Shown piece after piece: positions 25,162 to 41,740 of a DNA stretch of 48,659 bases. The translations under genes were made by a program, and so were the position numbers. The first letter of the stretch is position 1; every line of letters starts with the position of its first letter. The notes under the pieces are model-generated. The model did no database searches. It saw nothing but the letters and a program-made list of their open reading frames with translations, and had not been told where the DNA came from. The stretch is from Candidatus Pacearchaeota archaeon (lineage in GTDB: Archaea > Nanobdellota > Nanobdellia > Pacearchaeales > GW2011-AR1): the NCBI GenBank assembly GCA_023142835.1, contig JAGLIS010000023.1:1-48659 (forward strand), given 5' to 3'.

Positions 25162-25162
25162 A

Positions 25163-29676: not shown

Positions 29677-29772
29677 GCCTGATTAGCTCAGTTGATAGAG
29701 CGTCGCATTGGTAAAGACTCTTTGAGAAATCCAAAAATGCGGAGGTCGTGGGTTTGATCCCCATGTCAGGCT
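29677..29772 (+). tRNA. tRNA-Thr (anticodon GGT) with a ~23-nt intron at 37/38 (29714-29736)
   Basis: Acceptor GCCTGAT/GTCAGGC, D arm GCTC-AGTTGATA-GAGC, anticodon stem TCGCA/TGCGG, loop TTGGTA|intron|A. Intron CCAA pairs with TTGG (BHB-like). Confidence 0.75.
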
Positions 29773-29887
29773 TAATTTATACACTAATTGACTTATAATA
29801 TATTGTTGTTAATTTTAAGGTGTGTTTTTTAGTGTGTTGGATAAATTTAAGATTTATTCGTACAATAATTTAATTCGAAATATATAA

Positions 29888-30379: not shown

Positions 30380-30804
30380 ATTAGATTAAGTATGGTGATT
30401 GTTATTATCGCGACTATAATTGAAAATACGAACGAGAGAATATTCCTTATTATCGCAAATTTTTTCCCAAAAAAGTGAGTTTCTAATGGCAAGGTTAAAA
30501 CTCCTACACTAATAAATGAAACCATAAAAGCAGTTATAGCAACTAGGCTTACTCCCTCAGAAAGCATTTCTCCCCCTAAAATATAACTTATTGCAGGTCC
30601 TCCTATAGAGATGCTTCCCGCAATACTGCCAATCAGAGGGTCTAAAAGAATATTATCTTTGAAAATATTTGCATAAAATTCCTTAGACAAAAATTGAGTT
30701 AGGATACTAATAAGCATAATCATTCCTATAAGAATTGGAAAAATTCTTGCTATACTTTTTGCAGAACTTGAGGCATGTTGTTTTAGCGTTTTCTTTTTTA
30801 TCAC
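30376..30804 (-). CDS. Polytopic membrane protein (putative permease half)
   Basis: Hydrophobic throughout. Forms a pair with 29888-30379. Confidence 0.5.
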   Translation of the reverse strand: MIKKKTLKQHASSSAKSIARIFPILIGMIMLISILTQFLSKEFYANIFKDNILLDPLIGSIAGSISIGGPAISYILGGEMLSEGVSLVAITAFMVSFISVGVLTLPLETHFFGKKFAIIRNILSFVFSIIVAIITITILNLI

Positions 30805-30985
30805 TTTTCTCTAGACAAGATGAACTATATAAATTTTCTGACAAATTTCTTTTTAATGATTTTCCCAAAAATATTATATTCCCAAACTCAAAAATCGCCA
30901 ATCACTCTTGCTAAATTAAAAATTATTTTTTATATTAACTAAATTAAAATTAGTTATAAAAATTACCAGAAACCATTATAAGAAA

Positions 30986-31003
30986 ATCCCTGTGTCAGGC
31001 TTA
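30986..31003 (+). repeat. Copy of the tRNA-Thr 3' end
   Basis: ATCCCTGTGTCAGGCTTA versus 29757-29774 ATCCCCATGTCAGGCTTA (16/18). Confidence 0.6.
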
Positions 31004-31321
31004 TCTTTTTAATTTGTCTTCGTAAGAATTATTAACCTTAATAGCGTTACCTACTAAATTTGTGGTTTCGGTTCCTATGTCCCATAGCTTACTCGTCGTT
31101 TCTCCAATCCATCCGAAGTAGAGGTATGTTGCTTGAACTATGCCTTGTGGAGAGGTTAAATCTACTTGATCTGATGAAAGTATTCCTACCATAGAAAGAT
31201 AAAACAAGAGACCGATTAAAACAATAATGATGCTTTTAATTAGTTGAATGTGGTGATCCATTTTAAAAATTAAGAATCCTAACAAAACTAAGATTCCAAT
31301 TATAATCCATTGAAGGGCCAT
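31001..31321 (-). CDS. Small membrane protein (106 aa)
   Basis: Two or three TM segments. Confidence 0.5.
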   Translation of the reverse strand: MALQWIIIGILVLLGFLIFKMDHHIQLIKSIIIVLIGLLFYLSMVGILSSDQVDLTSPQGIVQATYLYFGWIGETTSKLWDIGTETTNLVGNAIKVNNSYEDKLKR

Positions 31322-31363
31322 GTTTTGTTAAAGAATCTTTATTATAAAAATGTTTTTATATGG

Positions 31364-32041
31364 ATGAAACTTGGAATTGTTATGGGGAGATATAAGATTT
31401 ATTTATTTAGGCATGGACAGACGACGTTTAATCGGGATGGAAGGTTTACTGGGCAGATGGAGGCGAGGCTGACTGTTGAGGGAAGGAGACATGCGGAGAC
31501 TATTGCGAGGAAGCTTAAGGGTGAGAAATTTCAGGTGGCGATTCATACTAGATTGTCTAGGTCGAAGGATACTTTGAAGCCTGTTTTAAAATTCCATCCG
31601 GAATGTAAATTTATTCTTGAAGATGATAGGATGATTGAGAGGAGTTATGGAGAGTTGCAAGGAACAACGCATGAGCAGTTTATTGATAGAATTGGGGAGC
31701 AAAGTTATGACTTGAGAGTTCATGGAGATGCGATTGAAAATCTTGAGCCAAATTTAAGGGAGGGGGTTGAGGAGTTTTTAGGAGAAGAAGAATATAAGGC
31801 AATTCACAGAGGGTATAATGTTGCGACACCTGGCGGGGAATCATTTAAGGATGTTGAGATGAGGGTGAAAGATTTTATTAAGGATTTAAAAAGGTTTATG
31901 AGAAAGAATAAGGTTAATGTTGCGATTTCGGCGCACGGGAATTCGATTAGATTATTTCGGAAGATTATGGAACGAGCACCTAAGAAGAATGTTGTAGGAT
32001 GGTTTATTCCTTATGATAAAGTATTTGAGTATAGAGTTTGA
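31364..32041 (+). CDS. Histidine phosphatase (phosphoglycerate mutase family)
   Basis: IYLFRHGQTTFN (RHG motif) and SAHGNSIR. The start could also be ATG 31382. Confidence 0.8.
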   Translation: MKLGIVMGRYKIYLFRHGQTTFNRDGRFTGQMEARLTVEGRRHAETIARKLKGEKFQVAIHTRLSRSKDTLKPVLKFHPECKFILEDDRMIERSYGELQGTTHEQFIDRIGEQSYDLRVHGDAIENLEPNLREGVEEFLGEEEYKAIHRGYNVATPGGESFKDVEMRVKDFIKDLKRFMRKNKVNVAISAHGNSIRLFRKIMERAPKKNVVGWFIPYDKVFEYRV

Positions 32042-32043
32042 TA

Positions 32044-32059
32044 GGTAGATTTAAAAGTT
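32044..32059 (+). promoter_or_regulatory. GGTAGATTTAAAAGTT motif, copy 2
   Basis: Identical 16-mer to 12681-12696, 3 nt after a TGA stop. Confidence 0.3.
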
Positions 32060-32197
32060 TTGGAAGTTATACAAATTTAAGGGGTTTGAAAGGTAGATTA
32101 GAAATCTATCATACAAATTTTGTCATACTGAAAAATTTGAAAGTACCTTCGAAGAAGGTTCATAGCAATATTCAAAAAATATTGAAAGGAGGGTTAA

Positions 32198-33115
32198 ATG
32201 AAAAATATAAGTGTATTGTTTTTAGGATTGTTCTTGTTAGTTGGATCTTTAGGATTTGTAGTTGCTGAGGAAGATGATTCTAATGTAGTTGAGATTCCTG
32301 AAGCTAGGGGAGTAGGTTTTTTTGAGGATGTTTTTGATAGGGTAGGGTTTGCTTTTATCTTTAATCGAGAACGAAAAATTGAGCGAGCTTTGGAGTTAGC
32401 TGAGAAAAGATTGGCTGAGGCTGAAGCATTTGCAGAGGAAGATCCTGAGAAAGCTGAGAAAGCTCAAGAGAGATATGGTGGTTTTGTTGCGGAGGCTGAG
32501 GAAATTTTAGAGAAAATTGAGGCGCAGAAATCAAATGATGAGGCTCGTTCGGTAAAGGATATGGAAGAGATGGCGAGGATTCAGAATAGATTTGAGAAGC
32601 ATAGGGAGCAGACAGAAGAAATTCATATTCGTGCTCTTGAGAGATTTAGAAATAACGATGCTAGTGAAGAAAAGATTGAACGGTTTGAAAATTTTTATGA
32701 AAGGGCTTTGAATCGTAGTGATGATATGGAGCAAAAGGTTCTTCAGAAAAAAAAGAATATTATTGAGCAACATAAGGTTTTATCTGGAAAATCTGATGGA
32801 GAACTTAAAGTGATTTTGGAAGAGATTGAATCTAAGGAAGGATTATTAAAATCTCGAGAGGTTAGGCTTGAAAGAGTTGAACAGAGAACTGAAAGAGTTA
32901 TTGTGGTTCATGAATTTGGGCTTGAGAAAGTTCGAACTCGTTTGGAGAATTCTGATTTATCTGATGAACAAAGAGTAAGGGTACAATCAGAACTTGGAAG
33001 ATTGGATCAGAGGTTAGATACTTTTAAGGAAAAATCTGATGAAAGAATTGAATTTGTGAAAGGGAAATTTGATGAAGTGGAAGTCTTTGATATTGCTAGT
33101 AGTGTTACTAATTAA
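32198..33115 (+). CDS. Secreted coiled-coil protein (DUF5667-like)
   Basis: Signal peptide MKNISVLFLGLFLLVGSLGFVVA, then Glu/Arg-rich helices. Confidence 0.6.
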   Translation: MKNISVLFLGLFLLVGSLGFVVAEEDDSNVVEIPEARGVGFFEDVFDRVGFAFIFNRERKIERALELAEKRLAEAEAFAEEDPEKAEKAQERYGGFVAEAEEILEKIEAQKSNDEARSVKDMEEMARIQNRFEKHREQTEEIHIRALERFRNNDASEEKIERFENFYERALNRSDDMEQKVLQKKKNIIEQHKVLSGKSDGELKVILEEIESKEGLLKSREVRLERVEQRTERVIVVHEFGLEKVRTRLENSDLSDEQRVRVQSELGRLDQRLDTFKEKSDERIEFVKGKFDEVEVFDIASSVTN

Positions 33116-33141
33116 TTTTATAGAACAAATTATTTTTATTT

Positions 33142-33166
33142 AGCCCTTAAGGGCTTTATTTTTATT
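33142..33166 (+). terminator. Hairpin AGCCC-TTAA-GGGCT followed by a T-rich run
   Basis: Perfect 14-nt palindrome 27 nt after the stop at 33115. Confidence 0.45.
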
Positions 33167-33288
33167 GAATTAGTAAGTATGCAAGGTGTAATATTGAGAG
33201 TGTTTGATATTTAGTGAAATACAAAAGCTTTTAATAAAGTGAATCTTCTTATTTGAGAAAGAGAGGTGTTTTTGGAAACAAAAAGAAA

Positions 33289-34194
33289 ATGGTGAAATTT
33301 AATGTGGTTAGTTTTGGGAGTGCTGTCGTCGACGCTTTTGTAGATACTGAGTTTAATGAGAAGAGTAATTCGTTTAGTTATCCTGCTGGTTCTAAAATTC
33401 TCGTCGACGATTTGAAGTTTGATATTGGTGGCGGGGCAACAAATGTGGCGGTTGCTTTTGCTCGTTTGGGATTGGAGACTGGCTGTGTTTGTAAGATTGG
33501 CGACGATAATAATGGGCAGGATGTTTTGAATATGTTAAAGGAGGAAAACGTTAAGTTTCTTGGATCGAAGACGAAAGGTAAAACGGGATATTCGATAATT
33601 CTCGATAGTAAGGATAGGAGTAGAACTATTTTGACTTTTAAGGGTCCTGGAAATGATATAGAATTAAGTGAGGTTCCGAAATTTAAAACTGACTGGCTTT
33701 ATTTTTCTTCGGTGCTTGGGGAGAGTCTTAGGACGCAGGAGAAACTTGCGAGGAAGTTGAAAAAAGAAGGGACGAGGTTGGCGTTTAACCCAGGGGAATA
33801 TTTGATTAAGAGAGAGGATTTGATGTCGATTTTAAAGTTGTGTGATGTTTTGATTTTGAATAAACAAGAAGCTGAAATGCTCTGTAAGAAATATAAGAAG
33901 AAAGGGAATTTGATGGTTTGTCTTCAGGAATTGGGACCAAGGATTATTGTTATAACTGATAAGAATAAATTGATAAGTTGTAGCGACGAGGATAAGAATT
34001 ATTTTTTGAAGCCTAATAAGATTAAGGTTGTTGAGAGAACTGGGGCAGGGGATGCGTTTGCTTCGGGATTTGTTGCGGGAGTTATTGCAGGGAAGACGAT
34101 TCCTGAAAGTTTGAAATTGGGTTTGAGGGAGAGTGAGTCTGTGATTAGATATTTTGGAGCTAAGAATAAATTGTTGAGGATGAAATTAAAATGA
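33289..34194 (+). CDS. PfkB-family sugar/nucleoside kinase
   Basis: FGSAVVD, DIGGGATNVAV, TGAGDAFASGF. The ORF track starts at TTG 33253. Confidence 0.8.
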   Translation: MVKFNVVSFGSAVVDAFVDTEFNEKSNSFSYPAGSKILVDDLKFDIGGGATNVAVAFARLGLETGCVCKIGDDNNGQDVLNMLKEENVKFLGSKTKGKTGYSIILDSKDRSRTILTFKGPGNDIELSEVPKFKTDWLYFSSVLGESLRTQEKLARKLKKEGTRLAFNPGEYLIKREDLMSILKLCDVLILNKQEAEMLCKKYKKKGNLMVCLQELGPRIIVITDKNKLISCSDEDKNYFLKPNKIKVVERTGAGDAFASGFVAGVIAGKTIPESLKLGLRESESVIRYFGAKNKLLRMKLK

Positions 34195-34946
34195 TTAAGT
34201 TGAATAAGATAGTTAGAAAAGGTAAGGCATTGTTTTTAGCCTATGACCAAGGGTTGGAACATGGGCCAACAGATTTTAATGATAAGAATGTTGATCCAGA
34301 GTTTATTATAAAAATTGCTAAGAAAGGAAAGTATACTGGAATTATTTTTCAAAAGGGGATAGCAGAAAAATATAGTCGAGAGATAAAGTTAAGCAAGATT
34401 CCTTTGATAGTTAAGCTCAATGGGAAAACTAATTTGGTTATGGGTGAGCCTGTTTCTAGGCAATTGTGTACTGTCGGTGAGGCAATTAAATTGGGTGCGG
34501 TTGCAGTTGGTTATACGATTTATATTGGGAGTAAGCATGAGGATGAAATGTTGTCGGAGTTTGAAAGTATACAAAGAGAGGCGCATAAGAATGGTTTGCC
34601 AGTTATTTGTTGGATTTACCCTCGAGGAAAAGGAGTTTCTGGTAGAAAGAAAAAAGATTTGATGGCTTATGCTGCACGGGTTGGGCTTGAGATTGGTACA
34701 GATATTATTAAGATTCAATCTAATGGTAAGAAAGAGGATTTAGCTTGGGCTGTTAAAAGTGCTGGAAAAACTCGGGTTGTTATTGCAGGTGGGAAAATGA
34801 AAGATGAAAAGGATTTAATTAAGGAGGTAAGGGAATCGATGAATGTTGGATGTATTGGTTTTGCTATTGGTAGAAATGTTTGGCAGAGTAAGAACCCTTT
34901 GAAAATTTCTAATAAAATAAGGGAGGTTATTTGGAAAAATGATTGA
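34191..34946 (+). CDS. fba: Class I fructose-bisphosphate aldolase, archaeal DhnA type
   Basis: FLAYDQGLEHGP, IIKIQ, GFAIGRNVWQ. Confidence 0.85.
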   Translation: MIKLNKIVRKGKALFLAYDQGLEHGPTDFNDKNVDPEFIIKIAKKGKYTGIIFQKGIAEKYSREIKLSKIPLIVKLNGKTNLVMGEPVSRQLCTVGEAIKLGAVAVGYTIYIGSKHEDEMLSEFESIQREAHKNGLPVICWIYPRGKGVSGRKKKDLMAYAARVGLEIGTDIIKIQSNGKKEDLAWAVKSAGKTRVVIAGGKMKDEKDLIKEVRESMNVGCIGFAIGRNVWQSKNPLKISNKIREVIWKND

Positions 34947-35376
34947 AGTAGATTATAAGAATTTGAAGAGGTTATGTGATAAGAAGATAGTCAGGAAGTA
35001 TGCTGATATGAAGGAGAGGTTCTTGTTGGAAGTTAAGGGGAATCCTTTACTTTATACTGTTTATATTAAGGATTTTGAAACTTTTGAAACTGGCTTAACG
35101 GTTATAGAATCTGGGAAAATTGGAAAGGAGTATTTTATGACTAAAGGACATAGACACAAAAAACCTATAGAAGAAGTTTATATGCTTATCGAGGGGAAAG
35201 GAGAACTTTTGATTAAGGAAAAAAATAAGATTAGAAAAATAAATATGAAGAAAGGTAAGGTTTATTTTATTCCTGGAAAGTCTGGACATAGGCTTATTAA
35301 TACTGGAAAGAATCGTTTAGAAGTTTTTACAATTTATAGCAAAAATGGGGGGTATGATTATGGTTTCGAATTCTAA
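34939..35376 (+). CDS. pgiA: Cupin-type glucose-6-phosphate isomerase
   Basis: TKGHRHKKPIEEVYMLIEGKGELLI, GHRLINTG. Confidence 0.7.
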   Translation: MIEVDYKNLKRLCDKKIVRKYADMKERFLLEVKGNPLLYTVYIKDFETFETGLTVIESGKIGKEYFMTKGHRHKKPIEEVYMLIEGKGELLIKEKNKIRKINMKKGKVYFIPGKSGHRLINTGKNRLEVFTIYSKNGGYDYGFEF

Positions 35377-36529
35377 AGATAAAGTAGATTTGTTGAAGAA
35401 GAGTGAAGAAGTTGTTAAGTCTTTACAGTTAAAAAATGGAGGTATACTTGCAACTCCGAAAGATGCGGCTTATCCTTATATTTATACTCGGGATAGTGTT
35501 ATCATTAGTAAGGCTATGAATCGTATAGGGATGGCTGATGCGTCTGAAAAATTTTATTATTTTATGAAGAAGGCTGTTAAAATAGAAAATTACAAAGAGG
35601 TTTTTCAGAGGTATACTTCTTCAGGATTGCCTTCAGTAACAAGAAAGGTGCAAAATGATAATGAAGGATTATTGTTGCATGGGATATATGATACTTATTT
35701 ATATAATAAGAAAGAGACATTTTTAGAGAATATGTGGATGACTGTTGAACAGATTGTTGGGCTTATATTTTCTTATTCAAGGTCGGGATTAGTTAAAACT
35801 AATTCTAGTATTCATGAATTTAAGAAACTGGAAAAGGGATATGATCTTTGGGTTAATTGTGCTTGTTATCGAGGATTAAAAGATGCAGTAAAAATAGCTG
35901 AAATTTTAAATCATAAAAAAGAAAGTAAGGAGTGGGATAAAAAGGCAGAGAAAATAAAAAAGAATATTAAAAAAAGATTGTTCAATAAGAAACTTAAAGT
36001 TTATATTAAAAATAGGAGGTTTCCTGATTCTCCAGATATTTCTCAGTTGGCTCCATTTTATTTTGATGTTGTAGATGATAAGAAAATTTTAAGAAATACT
36101 TTGACTTATTTGCGAAAACATATTTGGGATGGTGAAATCGGAGGGTTTAGGAGATTTAGGAAATTTGAAGTTTGTGATGATTGGCATTGGTATACCGGTG
36201 GTTCTGGGAGCTGGTGTGTCCTTACTGCAATGGTCGCTAGATTTTATAAGAAGTTAAATAACAAGACAGGTTATAATGAATGTGTAAAATGGTTAAGGGA
36301 TGTAGCTTTTTTTTCTGATGGATTTTTACCAGAGCACATTGCGACTAAGGAAGAATATGATGATTGGAAGGTTCATGAAATTGAATTTAATTCTAGAATT
36401 ATAAATGAAATGAATAAGGCTGAAGAATCTGTTAAAAATTTTAAAGGGAAAAAGATGGTTTGTTGGGCGAATCCATTGGGTTGGAGTCATGCTGAATATA
36501 TTTTGTTAAGGAAAGGAGATTTGAAATGA
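35345..36529 (+). CDS. Glycoside hydrolase family 15 (glucoamylase/glucodextranase-like) catalytic domain
   Basis: GGILATPKDAAYPYIYTRDS, WHWYTGGSGSW, NPLGWSHAEYI. Confidence 0.75.
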   Translation: MGGMIMVSNSKDKVDLLKKSEEVVKSLQLKNGGILATPKDAAYPYIYTRDSVIISKAMNRIGMADASEKFYYFMKKAVKIENYKEVFQRYTSSGLPSVTRKVQNDNEGLLLHGIYDTYLYNKKETFLENMWMTVEQIVGLIFSYSRSGLVKTNSSIHEFKKLEKGYDLWVNCACYRGLKDAVKIAEILNHKKESKEWDKKAEKIKKNIKKRLFNKKLKVYIKNRRFPDSPDISQLAPFYFDVVDDKKILRNTLTYLRKHIWDGEIGGFRRFRKFEVCDDWHWYTGGSGSWCVLTAMVARFYKKLNNKTGYNECVKWLRDVAFFSDGFLPEHIATKEEYDDWKVHEIEFNSRIINEMNKAEESVKNFKGKKMVCWANPLGWSHAEYILLRKGDLK

Positions 36530-37155
36530 AACCTCTTGTTGTTGTAAATTTCAAAACGTATAGGCAAGGGAAGGAAGCGATTAATTTAGCTAAGCAGATT
36601 GAAAGAGTTGATGGGAAAATTATCGTCGGTGTGCAGGCAAGTGATGTTTATGAGATTGTTAAGAAAACTAAATTAAAAGTTTATAGTCAGCATGTGGATT
36701 ATTTAGAAAAAGGACGAGCAACGGGATTTATTCTTCCCGAGGCTGTAAGGGGGGATAAGGCTATTGGGAGTTTTTTGAATCATTCGGAGCATAAGTTAGG
36801 GTTTGATGTTTTGAAAAAAACTGTTAAGAGATGTAATGAGGTAGGATTAAAGACTGTGGTTTTTGCTTCATCGTTGAGGGAAGCTTTGAAAATTGAAAAG
36901 TTAAAGCCTGATTATTTGGTAATAGAACCTCCTGAACTTGTTGGGGGAAAGGTTTCTGTTTCTGAATCTAAGCCGGAATTAATAGAGAAGATAAAGAAGA
37001 GTTTGAAAATGGATTTTCTCGTCGGTGCGGGGATTCATTCTTATGAAGATTTGAAGATTGCTATGAAACTTGGAGCGTCGGGTATTGCAGTTAGTTCGGC
37101 TATTTGTAATGTTAAGAATTCTGGGAAGGCGTTGAGGGAGTTGATTGGAAAGTGA
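36526..37155 (+). CDS. tpiA: Triosephosphate isomerase, archaeal type
   Basis: VVNFKTY, LNHSEH, EPPELVGG. Confidence 0.9.
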   Translation: MKPLVVVNFKTYRQGKEAINLAKQIERVDGKIIVGVQASDVYEIVKKTKLKVYSQHVDYLEKGRATGFILPEAVRGDKAIGSFLNHSEHKLGFDVLKKTVKRCNEVGLKTVVFASSLREALKIEKLKPDYLVIEPPELVGGKVSVSESKPELIEKIKKSLKMDFLVGAGIHSYEDLKIAMKLGASGIAVSSAICNVKNSGKALRELIGK

Positions 37156-37577
37156 AGGATAAATTATTGTTAAATATTTTGCATGAGGTGCAAGATAAGG
37201 AAGGTTATCTTTCTGAAAAAAGTTTGAAGAAGATTAGTGTAGAATATAATATTCCGATGTCTAAACTTTATAGCGTCGCTACATTTTATACAATGTTACG
37301 AACTAAGAAACAAGGAAAGTATGTTATAGAATTGTGCGGATCTCCGAGTTGTGTTTTAAATAAAAGTAGGGAGATAGAAAAATTTTTGGAGAGGGAGTTA
37401 AAGATTGAGATTGGTGAGACGAGTAAGGATGATTTGTTTTCGGTTTATAAGACTTCATGTATTGGGTGTTGTGATGAGGCACCTGCGATGTTGGTTAATG
37501 GGGAACCGTATACGAAGTTAACTGTTAAGAGAGTCAAAGAAATTTTAGAGGAATTAAGAAAAAATGCAAATTCTTAG
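37152..37577 (+). CDS. hydC: NuoE/HydC-like [2Fe-2S] thioredoxin-fold subunit
   Basis: ELCGSPSC...CIGCCDEAPAMLVNGE. Confidence 0.8.
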   Translation: MKDKLLLNILHEVQDKEGYLSEKSLKKISVEYNIPMSKLYSVATFYTMLRTKKQGKYVIELCGSPSCVLNKSREIEKFLERELKIEIGETSKDDLFSVYKTSCIGCCDEAPAMLVNGEPYTKLTVKRVKEILEELRKNANS

Positions 37578-38679
37578 AGAGACAAAATTGGAAGGGTTGA
37601 GGTTGGCTAGAAAAGTTGGGCGACAGAAAGTTCTTGAGATTTTGTTGAAGAAAAAATTAGGAGGTCGGGGTGGTGCAAATTTTCCGGTTGCAAAAAAATG
37701 GGAGACAGCACTTGGTGTGAAAGCAGATGAAAGGTATGTGATATGTAATGCAGATGAAGGTGAGCCGGGAACTTTTAAGGATAAATTTATTTTGAAGAAT
37801 AATTTTGAGACGATGATTGAGGGATTGTTAATTGCGGCTTATGTTTTGAGAGCTAAGAGGTGTTTTATTTATCTTCGAGGAGAGTATGATTATTTGAGGG
37901 AAGAACTTGAGGAGAAAATAAAAGAAGTTTTGGAGAAATCTAAAATGAAAGTTTCGATTGAAATTGTTAGAGGTGCTGGGGCGTATATTTGTGGGGAGGA
38001 GACTGCGATTATACAGTCGATAATGGGGAATAGGGGTAGTTCAATGTATAAACCGCCTCATCCTACTATTTCGGGTTTGTGGGGTAAGCCTACTGTTTTG
38101 AATAATGTTGAGACATTGACTTGTGTTCCTCAAGCGTTGGTCTATGAGGATTGGAATCCTGATTATAGGTTGTTTTCTATTTCGGGAGATGTTAATCATC
38201 CAGGAGTTTATGAGTGGGAATTGGGAGTAAAGATGTCTACGATTTTGGATGTTGTCAAACCGAGGGAGAAAATTAAGGCAATGTCTTTTGGTTGTTTTGG
38301 GGGGATTATGCCAGTTAAGAAAAGTTCTTCTGTTTCTCAGGAGACTATCTGTAAGGGTAATTGTCAGCATGGTGCGTTTAGTATTATCTTTATTGGGGAG
38401 AGACATAATATCGTCGATATATGTTTGAGTATCGCAAAATTTTATACTTATGAGTCTTGTGGAAAGTGTACTCCTTGTCGGGAGGGGACGATAAGATTGG
38501 TTAATCTGCTTAAGAAAATAAAAAGTAAAAAGGTAAATGAGGGTGATATAAAATTGTTGAAGGAATTTGCAGAGCATATTCAAGAGACGAGCTTGTGTGG
38601 ATTGGGACAGTCTTGTGGGAATCATATATTGACGAGTCTTAAATATTTTAAGAAAGATTATATGAGGTATATAAAATGA
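37564..38679 (+). CDS. hydB: NuoF/HydB-like flavoprotein subunit (short form)
   Basis: GGRGGANFPVAKKW, CNADEGEPGTFKD, ESCGKCTPCREG, LCGLGQS. Confidence 0.85.
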   Translation: MQILRETKLEGLRLARKVGRQKVLEILLKKKLGGRGGANFPVAKKWETALGVKADERYVICNADEGEPGTFKDKFILKNNFETMIEGLLIAAYVLRAKRCFIYLRGEYDYLREELEEKIKEVLEKSKMKVSIEIVRGAGAYICGEETAIIQSIMGNRGSSMYKPPHPTISGLWGKPTVLNNVETLTCVPQALVYEDWNPDYRLFSISGDVNHPGVYEWELGVKMSTILDVVKPREKIKAMSFGCFGGIMPVKKSSSVSQETICKGNCQHGAFSIIFIGERHNIVDICLSIAKFYTYESCGKCTPCREGTIRLVNLLKKIKSKKVNEGDIKLLKEFAEHIQETSLCGLGQSCGNHILTSLKYFKKDYMRYIK

Positions 38680-40343
38680 GGATAATTCTTGATGGGAAAA
38701 ATTTGGAAGTTGATGGGGAAAAAACAATTTTAGAAATTTGTCAAGGACAAAATATTAAAATTCCTACGTTGTGTTATCATAAGAATTTATTTCCTGAGGC
38801 AAGATGTAGATTATGTTTGGTTGACCTTGATGGGAAATTGGTGACTGCTTGTTCTACTAAGGCAAAAGAGAATTCTAAAATTGTAACCTCTTCTGAAAAG
38901 GTTTTAATGGCTCGACGGAGAAATATGGAATTGATGAATCCTGGTGTTGATATTGGTAAGTTGTCGGATGATTTTGAGGCGAGGGAAATTTATGAGCAGG
39001 TTGGTTTGGATAATGAGAGATTTAAGCCGATAAAAAATTATCTTCCGGAACTTGGAGCTGCACTTGTCAGGGATAATAATAAATGTGTTAATTGTGGACG
39101 GTGTGTTCAGGTTTGTGAAAAGATACAGGCTATTTCGGCGGTTGATTTTGCGAGTCGGGCTCATAATGAACATGTGACTCCATATTTTGAAAAGCATTTG
39201 TCGGATATTGCGTGTATAAAATGTGGGCAGTGTTTGATTAATTGTCCTGTTGGGGCTATTTCTGAGAGGTCGCATTTGAAGGAAGTTGTTGAGGCGTTGA
39301 ATAATCCTAAGAAGCATGTTGTTGCACAGACGGCACCGTCGATAAGAGCGGCGTTGGGGGAGCTTTTTGGTATGGAGGCTGGGACATTGGTAACGGGGAA
39401 GATGGTTACGGCTTTGAGGGGGTGCGGTTTTGATAAAGTTTTTGATGTTGATTTGGGTGCGGATATGACTATAATGGAAGAGTCTGCAGAGTTGTTGAAG
39501 AGGATTGAGAAGGGAGGACCTTTTCCCATGATTACGACTTGTTGCCCGAGTTGGATTTTGATGATGGAACATTTTTATCCCGAGTTGATTCCTAATATGT
39601 CGACGTGCAAGAGTCCTCATGAGATGTTGGGGATGCTTATTAAAACGTATTATGCCGAGAAGGCAAATATAAATCCTAAAGATATTGTCGTTGTAAGTAT
39701 TATGCCTTGTGTCGCGAAGAAGTTTGAGTCTACTCGTCCCGAATTGAATACTGAGGTAGATTATGTTCTTACGACGAGAGAGTTGGGGAGGTTGATTAAG
39801 CAAAGGAAAATTGATTTTGTTAAACTTGAAGATGAGGATTTTGACCCGACTCTTGGGATTGCGAGTGGGGCTGGGGATATTTTTGGAAATGCTGGAGGGG
39901 TGATGGAGGCGGCTTTGAGGACTAGTTATGAGATTGCTACTGGGAAGAAACTTAAGAAAGTTGAGTTCGATAATCTTCGGAATTTTAAAGGGATAAAAAC
40001 TGGTTCGATTAAATTGAATAATAATGTAATAAAATATGCTTGTGCAAGTGGTGGGGCGAACATTAGAGAGTTGTTGAAGAATAAGGATAAGTATCAATTT
40101 TTAGAGATGATGGCTTGTCCTGGAGGATGTATTGGAGGGGGGGGACAGCCAATTTATTTTGATGATAAGGTTTTGGAATTGAGAAGTAAGGCGTTGTATG
40201 AGCAGGATTCAAAAAGGGAATTTAGGAGGTCTCACGAGAATCCGATTGTTAAGGAAATTTATAAGAAGTATTTGGGGAAACCGTTGAGTAAGAAAGCGGA
40301 GAAGTTGTTGCATACGAGGTATCGGGAGAGGGATGGGTTTTGA
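38676..40343 (+). CDS. hydA: [FeFe]-hydrogenase catalytic subunit
   Basis: H-cluster motifs TTCCPSW, MPCVAKKFE, MACPGGCIGGGGQP. N-terminal [2Fe-2S] plus two CxxCxxCxxxCP ferredoxin motifs. Confidence 0.9.
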   Translation: MRIILDGKNLEVDGEKTILEICQGQNIKIPTLCYHKNLFPEARCRLCLVDLDGKLVTACSTKAKENSKIVTSSEKVLMARRRNMELMNPGVDIGKLSDDFEAREIYEQVGLDNERFKPIKNYLPELGAALVRDNNKCVNCGRCVQVCEKIQAISAVDFASRAHNEHVTPYFEKHLSDIACIKCGQCLINCPVGAISERSHLKEVVEALNNPKKHVVAQTAPSIRAALGELFGMEAGTLVTGKMVTALRGCGFDKVFDVDLGADMTIMEESAELLKRIEKGGPFPMITTCCPSWILMMEHFYPELIPNMSTCKSPHEMLGMLIKTYYAEKANINPKDIVVVSIMPCVAKKFESTRPELNTEVDYVLTTRELGRLIKQRKIDFVKLEDEDFDPTLGIASGAGDIFGNAGGVMEAALRTSYEIATGKKLKKVEFDNLRNFKGIKTGSIKLNNNVIKYACASGGANIRELLKNKDKYQFLEMMACPGGCIGGGGQPIYFDDKVLELRSKALYEQDSKREFRRSHENPIVKEIYKKYLGKPLSKKAEKLLHTRYRERDGF

Positions 40344-40349
40344 GTTGGT

Positions 40350-40370
40350 GGTAGATAGATTTAAGATGTT
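40350..40370 (+). promoter_or_regulatory. GGTAGATAGATTTAAGATGTT, variant of the GGTAGATTTAAAAGTT motif
   Basis: Lies 7 nt after the hydA stop and ~20-25 nt upstream of the ATG at 40389, consistent with a near-leaderless promoter. Confidence 0.3.
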
Positions 40371-40388
40371 CTTTTTCTTTTTAAAAAT

Positions 40389-40856
40389 ATGAAATGGGGA
40401 ATTCCTCCGCTAATTAAAGTTTATGAAGCTTTAGGTAGTATCGCCGATAAGAGGATAGAAATTGATGGATTAAAAGCCAAAGTTTATTCTTCGAGTAAGG
40501 GGAAATTTTATAATGTAAGGTACGAATCTGAAACTAATTCTATTATGGTAAATGACAATGGCTCGTATTATAAAGGATATTTGGGATATCCTGCAATTGC
40601 GTATTTGATGAAAATTGGAGAGCTTGAGTTTTCTGAAGAATATGCTGATGCTTTAGCGGGAATTGAGTGGAAGGATATCAATGTCAGGTTTAAGAATGAT
40701 TTTTCTAAAACACAAAAGTATGTGGACGAGATAGTTGAAAGTAAGGGTTTGAATTTAGGTCATTTCTATGATTATTTGGAAAGAGTTTTAGAGCAGATTA
40801 AATCAAAGGATTTGAATTTGTTGGGAAAGAAAGAAGGTCCGCCTAAGGGATACTGA
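40389..40856 (+). CDS. Hypothetical protein (155 aa)
   Basis: Long ORF. No family recognised. Confidence 0.5.
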   Translation: MKWGIPPLIKVYEALGSIADKRIEIDGLKAKVYSSSKGKFYNVRYESETNSIMVNDNGSYYKGYLGYPAIAYLMKIGELEFSEEYADALAGIEWKDINVRFKNDFSKTQKYVDEIVESKGLNLGHFYDYLERVLEQIKSKDLNLLGKKEGPPKGY

Positions 40857-40909
40857 TTTCTACAATTCTAGATAAATAGTTTTTTAAACATCCTAAGCCT
40901 TTCGTTTCC

Positions 40910-41740
40910 ATGAAAGTTTCTAAGGGTGGTAAGATTATTGCTATTGATTTGGGGGGGACGAATATAAGAGTTGCTCTTATTAAAAACAAAAAAATTCTAA
41001 AATATCATAAGGAAAAAACTCCAAAAACTTTGAAGGATATTAATACTAAAATTTTTGAGTTTGTTGAGAGTTATATATCTGATGATGTGAAAGGTATTGC
41101 TGTTGCGGTTCCGGGTTTGTTTAAGGAGGGGGTGATAAAAACTTTACCGAATTTACCTATAAGGAATTATAATTTGGGAGGAGTATTAAAAAATAAGTTC
41201 AAAGTTCCAGTTGTTATTAGGAATGATGCGGATTGTGTTGCTCTTGCTGAATTGGAACTTGGATGTAAGAAGAAGAATTTTATTATTTTGACTCTGGGGA
41301 CTGGGATAGGTGGAGGGATTATTATTGATGGCAAACTTTATCATGGGGAAGGATATGGAGGAGAGCTTGGGCATATTGTTTTGGATGGTGGTAAGGATTT
41401 TGAAAGTTTGGCGGCGTCGAAGAGATTGCGAAGTGTGACGACTAAGGTATTTGGAGAGTCGAAATTGTTTAATGAATTAATAAAAATGAAAGATGTAAGA
41501 GCTAAGAAAATATTAGAAGAGTTTACGAAATATTATGGACAGGGGATTGCGTCGCTTGTTAATTGTTTTGATCCGGAGGTTGTTATTTTAGCTGGAGGTG
41601 TTAGTGAATGTGGAAATGAGTTTTTGAAAATGGTGAGGAAACATTCAGCTAAGTATTTTCATTTTCCAAAGAAGACTCCAATTTTATGGAGTAAGTTAAA
41701 ACATCCCGGAGTTTTGGGGGCGAGTTTGTATTTTGAGTAG
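40910..41740 (+). CDS. ROK-family sugar kinase (glucokinase-like)
   Basis: IAIDLGGTNIRVA, NDADCVALAE, GTGIGGGII, GGELGH. No Cys-rich Zn motif. Confidence 0.8.
   Translation: MKVSKGGKIIAIDLGGTNIRVALIKNKKILKYHKEKTPKTLKDINTKIFEFVESYISDDVKGIAVAVPGLFKEGVIKTLPNLPIRNYNLGGVLKNKFKVPVVIRNDADCVALAELELGCKKKNFIILTLGTGIGGGIIIDGKLYHGEGYGGELGHIVLDGGKDFESLAASKRLRSVTTKVFGESKLFNELIKMKDVRAKKILEEFTKYYGQGIASLVNCFDPEVVILAGGVSECGNEFLKMVRKHSAKYFHFPKKTPILWSKLKHPGVLGASLYFE

What the first reader, a model, noticed from the sequence alone, without database searches (positions are those of the whole stretch)
33289..41740. Glycolytic/starch-degrading genes and a NuoE-NuoF-HydA [FeFe]-hydrogenase in one tightly overlapping archaeal gene string
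The PfkB kinase, class I FBA, cupin PGI, GH15, TPI, HydC, HydB and HydA genes are co-directional, and most joints overlap (ATGA or GTGA). A ROK kinase follows 570 nt downstream. HydA has all three H-cluster motifs (TTCCPSW, MPCVAKKFE, MACPGGCIGGGGQP). [FeFe]-hydrogenases were long considered bacterial or eukaryotic, and to my knowledge have only recently been reported from archaeal metagenomes. A direct genetic fusion of sugar breakdown to H2 production suggests a compact fermentative module. No HydE/F/G maturases lie in the window.
Basis: partly seen in the sequence, partly recalled or inferred. Interest (0 to 1): 0.75.

Follow-up and report, generated by a model that had tools for sequence, protein, structure and literature searches.

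The report
Glycolysis operon with minimal archaeal hydrogenase
A tiny (DPANN, Pacearchaeota) archaeon encodes the sugar-splitting half of glycolysis and a stripped-down three-subunit [FeFe] hydrogenase as one apparent operon; this enzyme family is already published, but its sequence suggests it burns NADH alone rather than 'bifurcating' electrons as the literature assumes.

Summary
Eight co-directional genes run from 33289 to 40343: PfkB kinase, class-I aldolase, cupin PGI, GH15-like glycosidase, TPI, HydC, HydB and HydA. All seven junctions overlap. HydA carries all three H-cluster motifs. The window is archaeal and holds no HydE/F/G.

The archaeal [FeFe] hydrogenase itself is not new. The identical proteins are in GenBank (MCK5449649-52, Candidatus Pacearchaeota), and the DPANN trimeric enzyme was described by Huang 2021 and Greening 2024 as "electron-bifurcating group A3".

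Two points go beyond that.

1. HydB is only 371 aa, a bare NuoF core. This holds in all 34 DPANN relatives. It lacks the N-terminal [2Fe-2S], the C-terminal 2x[4Fe-4S] and the Zn hinge. It has T70/K72 and no GGPSG, which is the published non-bifurcating signature. HydA has also lost the His-ligated [4Fe-4S]. The enzyme is therefore most likely NADH-only, like Syntrophomonas wolfei Hyd1ABC, and workable only at low H2.

2. Linkage to glycolysis recurs across species in three different layouts, including hydCBA-GAPDH-PGK. No non-glycolytic window neighbour recurs beyond the closest relatives.

Both points are inferred from sequence and have not been tested biochemically.

The parts
33142..33166 (+). 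GC hairpin (AGCCCTTAAGGGCT) followed by a T-run. It looks like a terminator closing the upstream DUF5667 gene and marks the 5' boundary of the unit.
   Evidence: Terminator-like site; sequence.
33229..33236 (+). TATA-like box TTTTAATA, about 53 nt upstream of the PfkB ATG. It is the putative archaeal promoter of the operon (inferred).
   Evidence: Sequence read directly. The sigma-70 scan does not apply to archaea.
33289..34194 (+). PfkB/ribokinase-family sugar kinase, inferred to be an ATP-phosphofructokinase. The mechanical ORF starts at TTG 33253.
   Evidence: PF00294, 142 bits. No NCBIfam equivalog reaches its cutoff. The best PDB matches are ribokinases at only about 49 bits. A conserved PfkB-FBA-TPI triad occurs in 10 loci.
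34191..34946 (+). Class-I (DhnA/FbaB-type) fructose-bisphosphate aldolase. It overlaps PfkB by ATGA.
   Evidence: PF01791, 145 bits. NF040816 archaeal class-I FBA scores 192 bits and the ADH-synthase subfamily 208 bits, both below cutoff.
34939..35376 (+). Cupin-type phosphoglucose isomerase, shortened to 145 aa. The metal-binding motif positions GHxH...E.Y...H are retained.
   Evidence: PF06560, 61 bits. Thermococcus/Pyrococcus cPGI structures match at E 1e-20 to 1e-18, with an alignment.
35345..36529 (+). Single-domain GH15-like (alpha/alpha)6 glycoside hydrolase, probably a glucose-releasing exo-alpha-glucosidase. Its substrate is unknown.
   Evidence: PF00723 and PF22422 score just above cutoff. 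There is no PDB sequence hit. The AF2 model has pLDDT 91.7. The top Foldseek hits are a 371-aa single-domain glycosidase (5z3a family, TM 0.72-0.77), a dextran dextrinase (9ju0), GH116 beta-glucosidases and a bacterial glucoamylase (1lf6). Y47, E158 and E330 are invariant.
36526..37155 (+). Archaeal-type triosephosphate isomerase.
   Evidence: NF003302, 202 bits (cutoff 132); PF00121.
37152..37577 (+). HydC, a NuoE-like subunit of 141 aa with one [2Fe-2S] (Cys62, 67, 103, 107). It has a GTG start overlapping the TPI stop (GTGA).
   Evidence: PF01257, 147 bits. Present in 33 DPANN loci.
37564..38679 (+). HydB, a minimal NuoF-like diaphorase of 371 aa. It has an NADH/FMN site and one [4Fe-4S] (C299, C302, C305, C345). 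It has no N-terminal [2Fe-2S], no C-terminal 2x[4Fe-4S] and no Zn hinge. It carries the EPGTFKD motif (T70/K72) and lacks GGPSG.
38676..40343 (+). HydA, a group A [FeFe]-hydrogenase catalytic subunit of 555 aa. It has an N-terminal [2Fe-2S], two [4Fe-4S], the H-cluster domain and a small-subunit-like tail. The His-ligated [4Fe-4S] (FS4C/A4) is missing.
40369..40382 (+). Oligo-T tract (TTCTTTTTCTTTTT) 26 nt after the hydA stop. It is the probable archaeal termination signal and 3' boundary of the operon (inferred).
   Evidence: Sequence read directly.
40389..40856 (+). 155-aa protein of unknown function (Pfam UCP014422). No homologue was found in any of the related hyd loci examined. It is probably not part of the module.
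   Evidence: No family. PF27709 is on record. No homologue in 37 related loci.
40910..41740 (+). ROK-family sugar kinase, inferred to be a glucokinase. It is the gene most often linked to hydCBA in relatives (15 loci) and probably has its own promoter here.
   Evidence: PF00480, 151 bits. The ROK glucokinase subfamily scores 123 bits, below cutoff.
31310..32041 (+). Histidine-phosphatase-superfamily protein, possibly a phosphoglycerate mutase, 1.2 kb upstream. Its link to the module is loose.
   Evidence: PF00300, 107 bits. Homologues lie near hydCBA in 4 loci.

Best explanation
The region 33289-40343 is a single translationally coupled operon of a Pacearchaeota (DPANN) archaeon.

**Sugar half.** The cluster encodes the whole preparatory half of Embden-Meyerhof glycolysis:
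- the GH15-like glycosidase releases glucose;
- the ROK kinase just downstream makes glucose-6-phosphate;
- cupin PGI makes fructose-6-phosphate;
- the PfkB kinase makes fructose-1,6-bisphosphate;
- the class-I aldolase and TPI yield two glyceraldehyde-3-phosphate.

**Hydrogenase half.** The same operon encodes a minimal three-subunit [FeFe] hydrogenase, HydCBA. This enzyme disposes of the NADH made at the next step. GAPDH is not in this window, but it lies next to hydCBA in relatives.

**Proposed electron path.** NADH -> FMN (HydB) -> the single HydB [4Fe-4S] -> the HydA N-terminal [2Fe-2S] -> two [4Fe-4S] -> H-cluster -> H2. The HydC [2Fe-2S] sits off the path, like cluster N1a of complex I.

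**Why NADH-only.** Every cofactor site that known enzymes use to take electrons from ferredoxin is absent. These are the HydB C-terminal 2x[4Fe-4S] with its Zn hinge, the HydB N-terminal [2Fe-2S], and the His-ligated FS4C of HydA. The enzyme is therefore most likely NADH-only and not electron-bifurcating. It would resemble Syntrophomonas wolfei Hyd1ABC but be smaller, with a predicted 22 Fe against 30.

**Consequence.** H2 production from NADH alone works only at low H2 (tens of Pa). That would tie the cell to H2-consuming neighbours.

**Shown versus inferred.**
- Shown: gene content, overlaps, cofactor motifs, domain absences and synteny.
- Inferred: co-transcription, the PFK and glucokinase specificities, the NADH-only mechanism and the syntrophic consequence.
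For: **Anatomy and families.**

**HydB is a bare NuoF core.**
- Only PF01512 and PF10589 match.
- It aligns to residues 182-556 of 626 in T. maritima HydB, 179-559 of 630 in T. kivui HydB and 162-528 of 599 in A. woodii HydB.
- The MAFFT alignment shows it starting about 40 residues before the GRGG motif. It ends at ...YFKKDYMRYIK, where A. woodii HydB continues with H...CPAGVC and two CxxCxxCxxxCP motifs.
- The AF2 model (pLDDT 88) covers Aquifex NuoF well (TMt 0.77) but only about half of bifurcating HydBs (TMt 0.53-0.58).

**The signature splits cleanly between the two groups.**
- All 34 DPANN HydBs are 368-394 aa. EPGTFKD is present in 33 of 34 (1 miss), the FMN-site Tyr motif was matched in 27, and none has GGPSG.
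- The full-length HydBs of the Clostridial relatives are mostly 596-656 aa (range 507-701). They carry DPGAFMD, GAGAFVCG and GGPSG plus the ferredoxin tail.
- The same covariation appears among the top 40 of 13,154 homologue cluster representatives.
- All 120 best HydB clusters are 351-410 aa and have no Fer4 domain.

**Published criteria.** The discriminating criteria come from Losey 2020 (PMC7311640), Losey 2017 (PMC5626996), Schut 2022 (PMC9304861) and Furlan 2022 (PMC9499530).

**HydA.**
- The FS4C motif HxxxCxxCxxxxxC is absent from all 35 DPANN HydAs whose N-terminus is present, and present in all 44 bacterial relatives.
- HydA scores best against the NCBIfam model 'NADH-dependent [FeFe] hydrogenase, group A6' (721.5 bits).

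**No substitute ferredoxin module.** No ferredoxin-type CxxCxxCxxxC[P/A/G] motif occurs anywhere else in the window. The same is true within +-10 kb of hydA in 34 of 35 DPANN loci.

**Linkage to glycolysis.**
- ROK recurs in 15 loci, TPI in 13, PfkB in 10, FBA in 10, GAPDH in 5 and PGK in 5.
- Non-glycolytic window genes turn up only as single hits, mostly in the closest relatives L001/L004.
- In L027 the order is hydCBA-GAPDH-PGK, co-directional and nearly contiguous.

**Expression.** Woesearchaeota hydrogenase genes are expressed in situ (PMC11606122).
Against: - No biochemistry exists for this clade.
- The discriminating criteria rest on few characterised enzymes, with only two non-bifurcating hydrogenases among them.
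- One of Losey's criteria (F versus Y at T. maritima position 367) cannot be scored, because the position lies in an 8-residue deletion.
- HydA is below the curated cutoff of the 'A6' model (721.5 against 765).
- The closest solved homologue of HydA is the bifurcating T. kivui HydA1.
- Three papers assign the DPANN trimeric enzymes to bifurcating group A3.
- A clade-specific Cys3-His constellation in HydB (C244, C263, C267, H269) could bind an unrecognised cofactor.
- GAPDH, PFOR and ferredoxin could not be looked for in the rest of this genome.
- No HydE/F/G is present, so how the H-cluster is matured is unknown.
- Tight overlaps are common in this genome. The PheRS string, for example, has 6 of 7 junctions overlapping. 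Overlap alone therefore does not prove functional coupling.
Confidence: 0.65

Rival explanations
1. This is the literature's reading. HydCBA is an electron-confurcating group A3 enzyme that oxidises NADH and reduced ferredoxin together to make H2, like the Thermotoga, Acetobacterium and Thermoanaerobacter HydABC enzymes.
For: - The gene set is trimeric, hydC-hydB-hydA, which is the HydDB criterion for A3.
- The best solved homologue of HydA is the bifurcating T. kivui HydA1 (551 bits).
- Huang 2021, Greening 2024 and the Lake Dziani Dzaha study all assign it this way.
- The conserved Cys3-His site in HydB could be an unrecognised cofactor site.
Against: [quoted passage not shown]
- It also lacks the N-terminal [2Fe-2S] and the Zn-hinge ligands.
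- It fails the Bfu-family definition, which requires a ferredoxin-type domain in BfuB.
- It has T/K rather than A/M at T. maritima positions 232/234, and no GGPSG.
- No separately encoded ferredoxin-like module lies nearby.
Confidence: 0.2
2. The enzyme works mainly in the uptake direction. It would use H2 from neighbouring cells to reduce NAD+, supplying reducing power to a cell with little metabolism of its own.
For: - S. wolfei Hyd1ABC is reversible.
- H2 oxidation with NAD+ is thermodynamically favoured at ambient H2 above about 70 Pa.
- DPANN cells live attached to or among other anaerobes.
Against: - Repeated genetic linkage to NADH-producing glycolysis, including GAPDH directly after hydA in L027, points to NADH disposal.
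- A fermenter needs an electron sink rather than a source.
- No obvious NADH-consuming pathway is encoded alongside.
Confidence: 0.08
3. The hydrogenase is not catalytically matured. No HydE/F/G is present, so the cluster would encode an inactive or repurposed redox protein.
For: - No maturase is in the window.
- Only 5 of 130 hydrogenase-bearing archaeal genomes have a full maturase set (Greening 2024).
Against: - All H-cluster ligands and proton-path residues are strictly conserved across 35 species, which indicates purifying selection on catalysis.
- Archaeal [FeFe] hydrogenases from maturase-less genomes are active once loaded with the cofactor.
- The cultured maturase-less Ca. Prometheoarchaeum syntrophicum is described as hydrogenogenic.
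- The genes are transcribed in situ.
Confidence: 0.05
4. This is an assembly or binning artefact, with bacterial hydrogenase genes joined to an archaeal contig.
For: - The hydCBA segment has a slightly higher GC content (0.38 against about 0.34).
- Its tetranucleotide correlation with the rest of the window is lower (0.91), though it is only 3.2 kb long.
Against: - Archaeal marker genes lie on both sides on one contig.
- The operon as a whole correlates at r = 0.96 with the rest of the window.
- The same string occurs in four independent assemblies.
- 37 DPANN loci, including contigs of 0.58-0.92 Mb and a closed chromosome, carry the same clade of genes.
- The nearest bacterial HydAs are only 44-48% identical.
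Confidence: 0.01

Closest known systems
DPANN (Woesearchaeota/Pacearchaeota/Micrarchaeota) trimeric 'group A3' [FeFe] hydrogenase of Huang et al. 2021 (PMC8421398) and Greening et al. 2024 (PMC11216029)
   Same: This is the same clade. The identical HydA is GenBank MCK5449651.1. All named relatives among the top 120 hits are DPANN. The nuoE-like/nuoF-like/hydA gene order is the same. The maturases are missing in the same way.
   Different: Those papers infer electron bifurcation. In the main text searched, they do not comment on the truncated HydB, on the loss of the His-ligated cluster in HydA, or on the linkage to glycolysis genes.
[quoted passage not shown]
   Same: It is also a trimer of HydA, a short NuoF-like HydB (407 aa) and a NuoE-like HydC. 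Its HydB also lacks the N-terminal [2Fe-2S] and a C-terminal cluster. Non-bifurcating beta subunits as a class carry T/S and K/S/A at the NADH site and lack GGPSG. The implied physiology is the same: H2 from NADH only at tens of Pa.
   Different: The window enzyme is archaeal and smaller. HydB is 371 aa with a single [4Fe-4S], and HydA lacks FS4C. The predicted iron content is about 22 Fe, against 30 predicted and 29.2 measured for S. wolfei.
Electron-bifurcating HydABC of Thermotoga maritima (7P5H), Thermoanaerobacter kivui (8A6T) and Acetobacterium woodii (7Q4V)
   Same: All three subunits are homologous. HydA scores 551 bits against T. kivui HydA1. The main FMN-to-H-cluster wire (B2, A3, A2, A1 in Furlan's nomenclature) is conserved.
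   Different: Clusters A4 (His-ligated), B1, B3 and B4 and the Zn hinge are missing. So is A5, the C-terminal HydA domain of T. maritima. The residues diagnostic of bifurcating enzymes are also absent.
NuoE-NuoF-NuoG N-module of respiratory complex I (Aquifex aeolicus NuoEF, 6HL2/6Q9C)
   Same: Aquifex NuoF is the best sequence match (253 bits) and the best structural match (TM 0.86/0.77) for HydB. Both share the EPGTFKD and GAGAYICG motifs. HydC corresponds to NuoE, and the HydA N-terminus to the NuoG N-terminus.
   Different: The electron acceptor is an H-cluster domain fused to the NuoG-like part, not a quinone module. HydB carries three extra deletions (9, 8 and 5 residues) and a clade-specific Cys3-His set.

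Membership tests
[FeFe] hydrogenase, group A (catalytic subunit HydA) | H-cluster binding motifs L1 (TSCCPxW), L2 (MPCxxKxxE) and L3 (ExMxCxxGCxxGGGQ) | tested here: met
   TTCCPSW is at 287-293, MPCVAKKFE at 343-351 and EMMACPGGCIGGGGQP at 479-492. The motifs are conserved in the DPANN relatives, apart from one L2 miss in L035.
[FeFe] hydrogenase, group A (catalytic subunit HydA) | Profile match above the curated threshold | tested here: met
   TIGR02512 scores 506.8 bits against a 405.95 cutoff. PF02906 scores 311 bits and PF02256 scores 75 bits.
[FeFe] hydrogenase, group A (catalytic subunit HydA) | Proton-transfer residues (CpI E279/E282, S319, C299, K358) | tested here: met
   MEESAEL is at 267-273, CKSPH at 311-315, the CC at 289-290 and K348 in MPCVAKK. 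The mapping to CpI numbers rests on the alignment and on my own knowledge.
Group A3 as defined by HydDB (genetic organisation) | hydA adjacent to nuoF-like (hydB) and nuoE-like (hydC) genes | tested here: met
   hydC, hydB and hydA are contiguous and overlapping. The same holds in 33-34 DPANN loci.
Electron-bifurcating HydABC / Bfu family (functional class) | HydB/BfuB carries a C-terminal ferredoxin-type 2x[4Fe-4S] domain (IPR017896; clusters B3/B4) | tested here: not met
   There is no Fer4 Pfam hit. The protein ends before the domain begins. None of the 120 closest clusters has it.
Electron-bifurcating HydABC / Bfu family (functional class) | N-terminal [2Fe-2S] thioredoxin-like domain in HydB | tested here: not met
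   The first 160-180 residues of the T. maritima, T. kivui and A. woodii HydBs have no counterpart.
Electron-bifurcating HydABC / Bfu family (functional class) | Zn-hinge ligands (3 Cys + 1 His) at the end of the four-helix bundle | tested here: not met
   HydB terminates at ...YFKKDYMRYIK, where A. woodii HydB has EAHIRDKKCPAGVC. The exact ligand identities were not checked against the structure.
Electron-bifurcating HydABC / Bfu family (functional class) | A/E at T. maritima HydB position 232 and M at 234 (the 'GAFMD' motif) | tested here: not met
   The window has T70 and K72 in EPGTFKD. The mapping comes from the offset and the alignment. The same holds in 33 of 34 DPANN HydBs.
Electron-bifurcating HydABC / Bfu family (functional class) | GGPSG motif (T. 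maritima 427-431) | tested here: not met
   The window has SFGCFGG at 241-247. GGPSG is absent from all 34 DPANN HydBs.
Electron-bifurcating HydABC / Bfu family (functional class) | F at T. maritima position 367 | tested here: inconclusive
   The position falls in an 8-residue deletion after 'DW' in the DPANN clade, so neither F nor Y is present.
Non-bifurcating NADH-dependent [FeFe] hydrogenase (S. wolfei Hyd1ABC type; NCBIfam 'group A6') | Short NuoF-like beta subunit without the accessory FeS domains | tested here: met
   HydB is 371 aa (S. wolfei 407 aa), and only the N3-type cluster motif is present.
Non-bifurcating NADH-dependent [FeFe] hydrogenase (S. wolfei Hyd1ABC type; NCBIfam 'group A6') | T/S at position 232 and K/S/A at 234; no GGPSG | tested here: met
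   T70 and K72 are present and GGPSG is absent.
Non-bifurcating NADH-dependent [FeFe] hydrogenase (S. wolfei Hyd1ABC type; NCBIfam 'group A6') | HydA reaches the curated score of NF040763 | tested here: not met
   This is the best-scoring model, but 721.5 bits is below the 765 cutoff. A 62%-identical DPANN homologue is named 'group A6' by NCBI (P0118).
Non-bifurcating NADH-dependent [FeFe] hydrogenase (S. wolfei Hyd1ABC type; NCBIfam 'group A6') | H2 evolution from NADH without ferredoxin | not testable with these tools
   This needs enzyme assays.
Cupin-type phosphoglucose isomerase (Thermococcales cPGI) | Profile match plus the metal-binding GHxH...E...H motif | tested here: met
   PF06560 scores 61 bits (cutoff 20.7). 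The alignment to 1j3p shows TKGHRH, EEVY and GHR at the ligand positions.
GH15 glucoamylase | Catalytic (alpha/alpha)6 domain with two catalytic Glu; usually also an N-terminal beta-sandwich domain; starch or maltooligosaccharide specificity | tested here: inconclusive
   The fold is supported and invariant E158 and E330 are candidate catalytic residues. However, the N-domain is absent, the Pfam score is marginal (33 bits), TIGR01577 scores 97 bits against an 821 cutoff, and there is no PDB sequence hit. Substrate specificity was not tested.

The most novel reading that the evidence does not exclude
The whole DPANN clade of trimeric [FeFe] hydrogenases, currently catalogued as electron-bifurcating group A3, may in fact be a distinct, ultra-minimal, NADH-only hydrogenase. 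It would carry about 22 Fe, with no FS4C and no accessory HydB clusters, but a clade-specific Cys3-His site in HydB. It is genetically hard-wired to glycolysis. These archaea could then ferment sugars only while a partner keeps H2 at tens of Pa. That would be a mechanistic basis for their dependence on other cells, and a correction to published metabolic reconstructions.
Probability: 0.55. Interest if true: 0.6.

Novelty: new member of a known kind. Interest (0 to 1): 0.45.

Why it matters
DPANN archaea make up a large share of archaeal diversity, and why they depend on other cells is an open question.

**If the enzyme is NADH-only.** Published energy and redox budgets for Woesearchaeota and Pacearchaeota assume NADH plus ferredoxin go to H2 at high H2 partial pressure. 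Those budgets would need revision. Sugar fermentation by these cells would become thermodynamically dependent on H2 scavengers such as methanogens or sulfate reducers. That gives a concrete, testable basis for syntrophy.

**As an enzyme.** It would be the smallest NADH-linked [FeFe] hydrogenase known: a straight NuoEF-to-H-cluster wire. That makes it attractive as a minimal model for NADH-driven H2 production, and as a natural negative control for what bifurcation requires.

**The recurrent linkage.** Glycolysis genes and hydCBA are linked in three different gene orders. That is unusually direct genomic evidence for which redox carrier the enzyme serves.

**What is not new.** An [FeFe] hydrogenase in an archaeon, and the lack of HydEFG, are both already published.

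Tried and rejected
1. **Chimeric contig or contamination.** Rejected on flanking archaeal markers, the tetranucleotide signature and four independent assemblies.
2. **TrmB regulation through a Thermococcales glycolytic motif.** A TrmB-family regulator lies at 2265-3071. The motif TATCAC-N5-GTGATA gave 19 matches at up to 3 mismatches, against 16.5 expected, and none sits in the operon's promoter region.
3. **Bacterial sigma-70 promoter scan.** It showed no enrichment and does not apply to archaea.
4. **A possible alternative maturation cluster.** Just beyond the window's end lie genes for a ParA/CbiA protein with a 4Fe-4S domain, a Nitro_FeMo-Co protein, DUF134 and DUF123. None of these recurs near hydCBA in 37 related loci.
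5. **A separately encoded ferredoxin module replacing the missing HydB domains.** No CxxCxxCxxxC[P/A/G] motif occurs outside HydA in the window, or in 34 of 35 DPANN loci.
6. **My own mapping error.** I first mapped Losey's 'F367 versus Y' criterion onto the GAGA[F/Y]xCG motif. Residue counting showed it belongs to the 'GAEWF' / 'WEEY' region, which is deleted in DPANN HydB. GAGA[F/Y] is kept only as my own covarying marker.
7. **Walking the 90-kb contig to look for HydEFG, PFOR and GAPDH.** Look-ups are limited to window-encoded proteins, so only about 8 kb beyond the window was seen.
8. **PDB sequence search for the GH15-like protein.** It found nothing. A structure prediction plus Foldseek search was used instead.
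9. **Geometry of the Cys3-His site.** It could not be checked, because model coordinates are not returned.

Full report
**1. What is there**

The window carries an unbroken run of + strand genes between 33.2 and 41.8 kb. Pfam and NCBIfam identify them as follows:

| Gene | Coordinates | Length |
|---|---|---|
| PfkB-family sugar kinase | ORF from TTG 33253; homologues start at the ATG at 33289 | - |
| DhnA/FbaB-type class-I aldolase | 34191-34946 | - |
| cupin phosphoglucose isomerase | 34939-35376 | - |
| GH15-like six-hairpin glycosidase | 35345-36529 | - |
| archaeal triosephosphate isomerase | 36526-37155 | - |
| HydC, NuoE-like | 37152-37577 | 141 aa |
| HydB, NuoF-like | 37564-38679 | 371 aa |
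| HydA, [FeFe]-hydrogenase catalytic subunit | 38676-40343 | 555 aa |
| protein with no match in the tool's Pfam/NCBIfam libraries | 40389-40856 | 155 aa |
| ROK sugar kinase | 40910-41740 | - |

All seven junctions from PfkB to HydA overlap. There are three ATGA and one GTGA overlaps, and three longer ones of 8, 14 and 32 nt. Elsewhere in the window 10 of 32 co-directional pairs overlap. Overlap is therefore a habit of this compact genome, but this run is the longest.

The unit has recognisable boundaries:
- A hairpin plus T-run lies at 33142-33166.
- A TTTTAATA box lies at 33229-33236, ahead of the first gene.
- A TTCTTTTTCTTTTT tract lies at 40369-40382, after hydA.

I read 33289-40343 as one operon, and the 155-aa ORF and ROK as separately promoted. 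This is inferred, not shown.

**2. Provenance**

The window is archaeal throughout.
- It encodes EF-1alpha, a TrmB regulator, diphthine synthase, Trm5/TYW2, an archaeal CCA-adding enzyme, RNase P p30 and archaeal PheRS alpha and beta.
- It carries a tRNA with a 25-nt insertion at the canonical intron site.
- CDC48 lies just beyond the window's end.

The tetranucleotide signature of the operon matches the rest of the window (r = 0.96, against 0.97-0.98 for other 8-kb pieces).

The identical HydC, HydB, HydA and ORF155 proteins are in GenBank as MCK5449649-MCK5449652 from a 'Candidatus Pacearchaeota archaeon', on a 90-kb contig.

A scan of one genome per species found 37 DPANN loci whose HydA is 51-90% identical. 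These are labelled Pacearchaeota, Woesearchaeota, Nanoarchaeota, Micrarchaeota, Aenigmarchaeota and a 'Diapherotrites', and a few carry 'uncultured Methanosarcinales' labels. They include contigs of 0.58-0.92 Mb. Identity then drops to Clostridia at 44-48%. A chimera or binning artefact is excluded.

**3. Is the hydrogenase intact?**

HydA has the following features:
- an N-terminal [2Fe-2S] motif (C33...C59);
- two CxxCxxCxxxC motifs (137-147 and 180-190);
- the three H-cluster motifs, TTCCPSW, MPCVAKKFE and EMMACPGGCIGGGGQP;
- the proton-path residues.

The H-cluster motifs are conserved in the DPANN relatives, apart from one L2 miss in L035. No radical-SAM or HydF-like protein is in the window. 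That matches Greening 2024, where only 5 of 130 hydrogenase-bearing archaeal genomes had a full maturase set.

**4. What is already known**

Huang et al. 2021 (PMC8421398) and Greening et al. 2024 (PMC11216029) already describe this trimeric enzyme in Woesearchaeota and other DPANN. Both assign it to 'group A3', the electron-bifurcating class. A 2024 Lake Dziani Dzaha study does the same and shows the genes are transcribed.

**5. What the sequence says about mechanism**

HydB is the key.
- It matches only the NuoF FMN domain and the NuoF [4Fe-4S] domain.
- Against solved structures it covers residues 182-556 of 626 in T. maritima HydB, 179-559 of 630 in T. kivui HydB and 162-528 of 599 in A. 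woodii HydB. Its best hit is plain Aquifex NuoF.
- In a multiple alignment it starts about 40 residues before the GRGG motif.
- It ends at ...YFKKDYMRYIK. That is exactly where A. woodii and Clostridial HydBs continue with H...CPAGVC and two ferredoxin motifs.
- It also carries three further deletions, of 9, 8 and 5 residues.
- The AF2 model (pLDDT 88) overlays Aquifex NuoF at TM 0.86/0.77 but covers only about half of bifurcating HydBs.

Three sources define what bifurcation requires:
- Schut 2022 defines the bifurcating Bfu family by a ferredoxin-type domain in BfuB. That paper notes that non-bifurcating homologues such as the S. wolfei enzyme lack clusters B2-B5.
- Losey 2020 gives residue criteria.

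Against Losey's criteria, the window has T70/K72 where bifurcating enzymes have A/M. It has SFGCFGG where they have GGPSG. The third position (T. maritima F367) lies in a deletion and cannot be scored.

The split is clean in my data. All 34 DPANN HydBs are 368-394 aa. EPGTFKD is present in 33 of 34 (1 miss), the FMN-site Tyr motif was matched in 27, and none has GGPSG. The full-length HydBs of the Clostridial relatives are mostly 596-656 aa (range 507-701). They carry DPGAFMD, GAGAFVCG, GGPSG and the ferredoxin tail.

The same covariation holds among the 40 best of 13,154 homologue clusters. All 120 closest HydB clusters are 351-410 aa without a Fer4 domain.

**6. HydA is also reduced**

The His-ligated [4Fe-4S] (FS4C in CpI, A4 in T. 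maritima HydA) has the motif HxxxCxxCxxxxxC. It is replaced by NPGVDIGKLSDDFEA, which has no Cys or His. The motif is absent from all 35 DPANN HydAs whose N-terminus is present, and present in all 44 bacterial relatives.

In T. maritima this cluster wires two protomers together. [quoted passage not shown]

No ferredoxin-type motif occurs anywhere else in the 48.6-kb window, or within 10 kb of hydA in 34 of 35 DPANN loci.

What remains is a straight wire: NADH, FMN, one [4Fe-4S], one [2Fe-2S], two [4Fe-4S] and the H-cluster, with the HydC [2Fe-2S] to the side. That totals about 22 Fe. S. wolfei Hyd1ABC has 30 predicted and 29.2 measured.

HydA scores best against the NCBIfam model 'NADH-dependent [FeFe] hydrogenase, group A6', at 721.5 bits. 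That is just under the 765 cutoff.

I therefore think the enzyme is NADH-only and non-bifurcating, with confidence of about 0.65. I found no paper in the library that links 'non-bifurcating' with DPANN. Greening 2024 does not use the term.

**7. Linkage to glycolysis**

I compared all 48 window genes against the 37 DPANN loci. Only glycolytic genes recur beside hydCBA: ROK in 15 loci, TPI in 13, PfkB in 10, FBA in 10, GH15-like in 4 and cPGI in 3. Non-glycolytic window genes turn up only as single hits, mostly in the closest relatives L001/L004.

De novo clustering of all ORFs in those loci adds GAPDH (5 loci), PGK (5 loci) and a His-phosphatase (4 loci).

Three layouts exist:
- **Layout A.** The window's co-directional string, seen in L001-L004 (HydA 88-90% identical).
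- **Layout B.** ROK is divergent upstream, and a convergent string TPI-FBA-PfkB lies downstream. PGK and GAPDH extend that string in L008, L013 and L016.
- **Layout C.** hydCBA-GAPDH-PGK are co-directional in L027, and hydCBA-GAPDH in L030.

Linkage that survives rearrangement, and that includes the NADH-producing step, argues that the hydrogenase serves glycolytic NADH. Neither main text of the two key papers mentions this. Their supplementary gene maps may show it.

**8. The sugar genes**

- **cPGI** is well supported. It matches Thermococcus and Pyrococcus structures at E 1e-20 to 1e-18, with metal ligands in place.
- **The GH15-like protein** is a divergent, roughly 380-aa single-domain family found in Pacearchaeota, Nanoarchaeota and Patescibacteria.
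  - It has no PDB sequence hit.
  - Its AF2 model (pLDDT 91.7) best matches a 371-aa single-domain glycosidase (the 5z3a series). From memory, I believe that protein is a GH15 isomaltose glucohydrolase.
  - A dextran dextrinase (9ju0), GH116 beta-glucosidases and a bacterial glucoamylase (1lf6) come next.
  - 'Starch-degrading' is therefore plausible but unproven.
- **The PfkB kinase** matches no NCBIfam equivalog and matches ribokinases only weakly. Its role as a phosphofructokinase rests on the conserved PfkB-FBA-TPI triad.

**9. Consequence and verdict**

By analogy with S. wolfei, H2 production from NADH alone stalls at tens of Pa. That enzyme gave 17-40 Pa measured and about 70 Pa at equilibrium. 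A confurcating enzyme allows more than 1000 Pa. Sugar fermentation by these cells would therefore need an H2-consuming neighbour.

The finding is real, correctly read and largely already published. The added value is a testable reinterpretation of the mechanism, and the recurrent linkage between glycolysis and the hydrogenase.

Noticed in passing
window 37564-38679 (HydB residues C244, C263, C267, H269): HydB carries a clade-specific Cys3-His constellation in the segment that replaces the GGPSG loop. Among 35 DPANN HydBs, C244 is conserved in 32, C263 in 31, C267 in 35 and H269 in 27. Aquifex NuoF and bifurcating HydBs lack it. It could be a structural Zn site or an unrecognised cofactor site.
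   Followed up: partly
window 29677-29772 (+): Rfam finds a 96-nt tRNA with a 25-nt insertion right after the anticodon loop, at the canonical archaeal intron position. ARAGORN did not call it.
   Followed up: partly
window 40389-40856 (+): A 155-aa ORF (Pfam UCP014422) sits between hydA and ROK. It has no homologue in any of the 37 related loci. In the closest relatives L002-L004, ROK follows hydA after about 50 nt.
   Followed up: partly
window 35345-36529; proteins P0145, P0172, P0175: The compact, roughly 380-aa GH15-like family is shared at 58-64% identity between Pacearchaeota/Nanoarchaeota and Patescibacteria (CPR bacteria). This suggests gene exchange between the two groups of ultra-small organisms.
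   Followed up: no
window 22522-28457 (+): The PheRS alpha and beta genes are separated by five unrelated small genes: two unknowns, a PNPOx-like protein, a serine hydrolase, and HAD and MazG proteins. The string has 6 of 7 junctions overlapping.
   Followed up: no
window 2265-3071 (-): A TrmB-family sugar-responsive transcriptional regulator lies 30 kb from the operon. The Thermococcales glycolytic motif is not enriched in the window (19 matches against 16.5 expected).
   Followed up: yes
L081:395-2517 (about 5-8 kb beyond the window's 3' end on the source contig): A cluster encodes a ParA/CbiA-family protein with a 4Fe-4S domain, DUF123, a Nitro_FeMo-Co (NifX/NifB-like) protein and DUF134. 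I tested it as a possible alternative FeS or H-cluster assembly system. It does not recur near hydCBA in other DPANN loci.
   Followed up: yes
L017, L018, L024, L025, L027, L028, L029, L031, L033 (e.g. L028:7295-7918): In nine more distant DPANN loci, a 180-207-aa multi-pass membrane protein with no Pfam match is a recurrent neighbour of hydA (immediately downstream in L028, the one locus whose position was checked). It is probably the 'hyd6TM' protein of Greening 2024. It is absent from the window lineage.
   Followed up: no
L005, L006, L007, L010, L011, L014, L015, L026, L034 (upstream of ROK; the GHMP kinase also in L016): A GHMP-family kinase (10 loci), a 740-770-aa GT4 glycosyltransferase and a mannose-6-phosphate-isomerase-type cupin (9 loci each) recur next to the ROK-hydCBA block. 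This hints at a wider sugar-metabolism island.
   Followed up: partly
window 21000-41000: GC skew is very strong and sustained (+0.4 to +0.53) wherever genes lie on the + strand. This reflects purine-rich coding strands. It falls to about 0 where the gene orientation flips.
   Followed up: no
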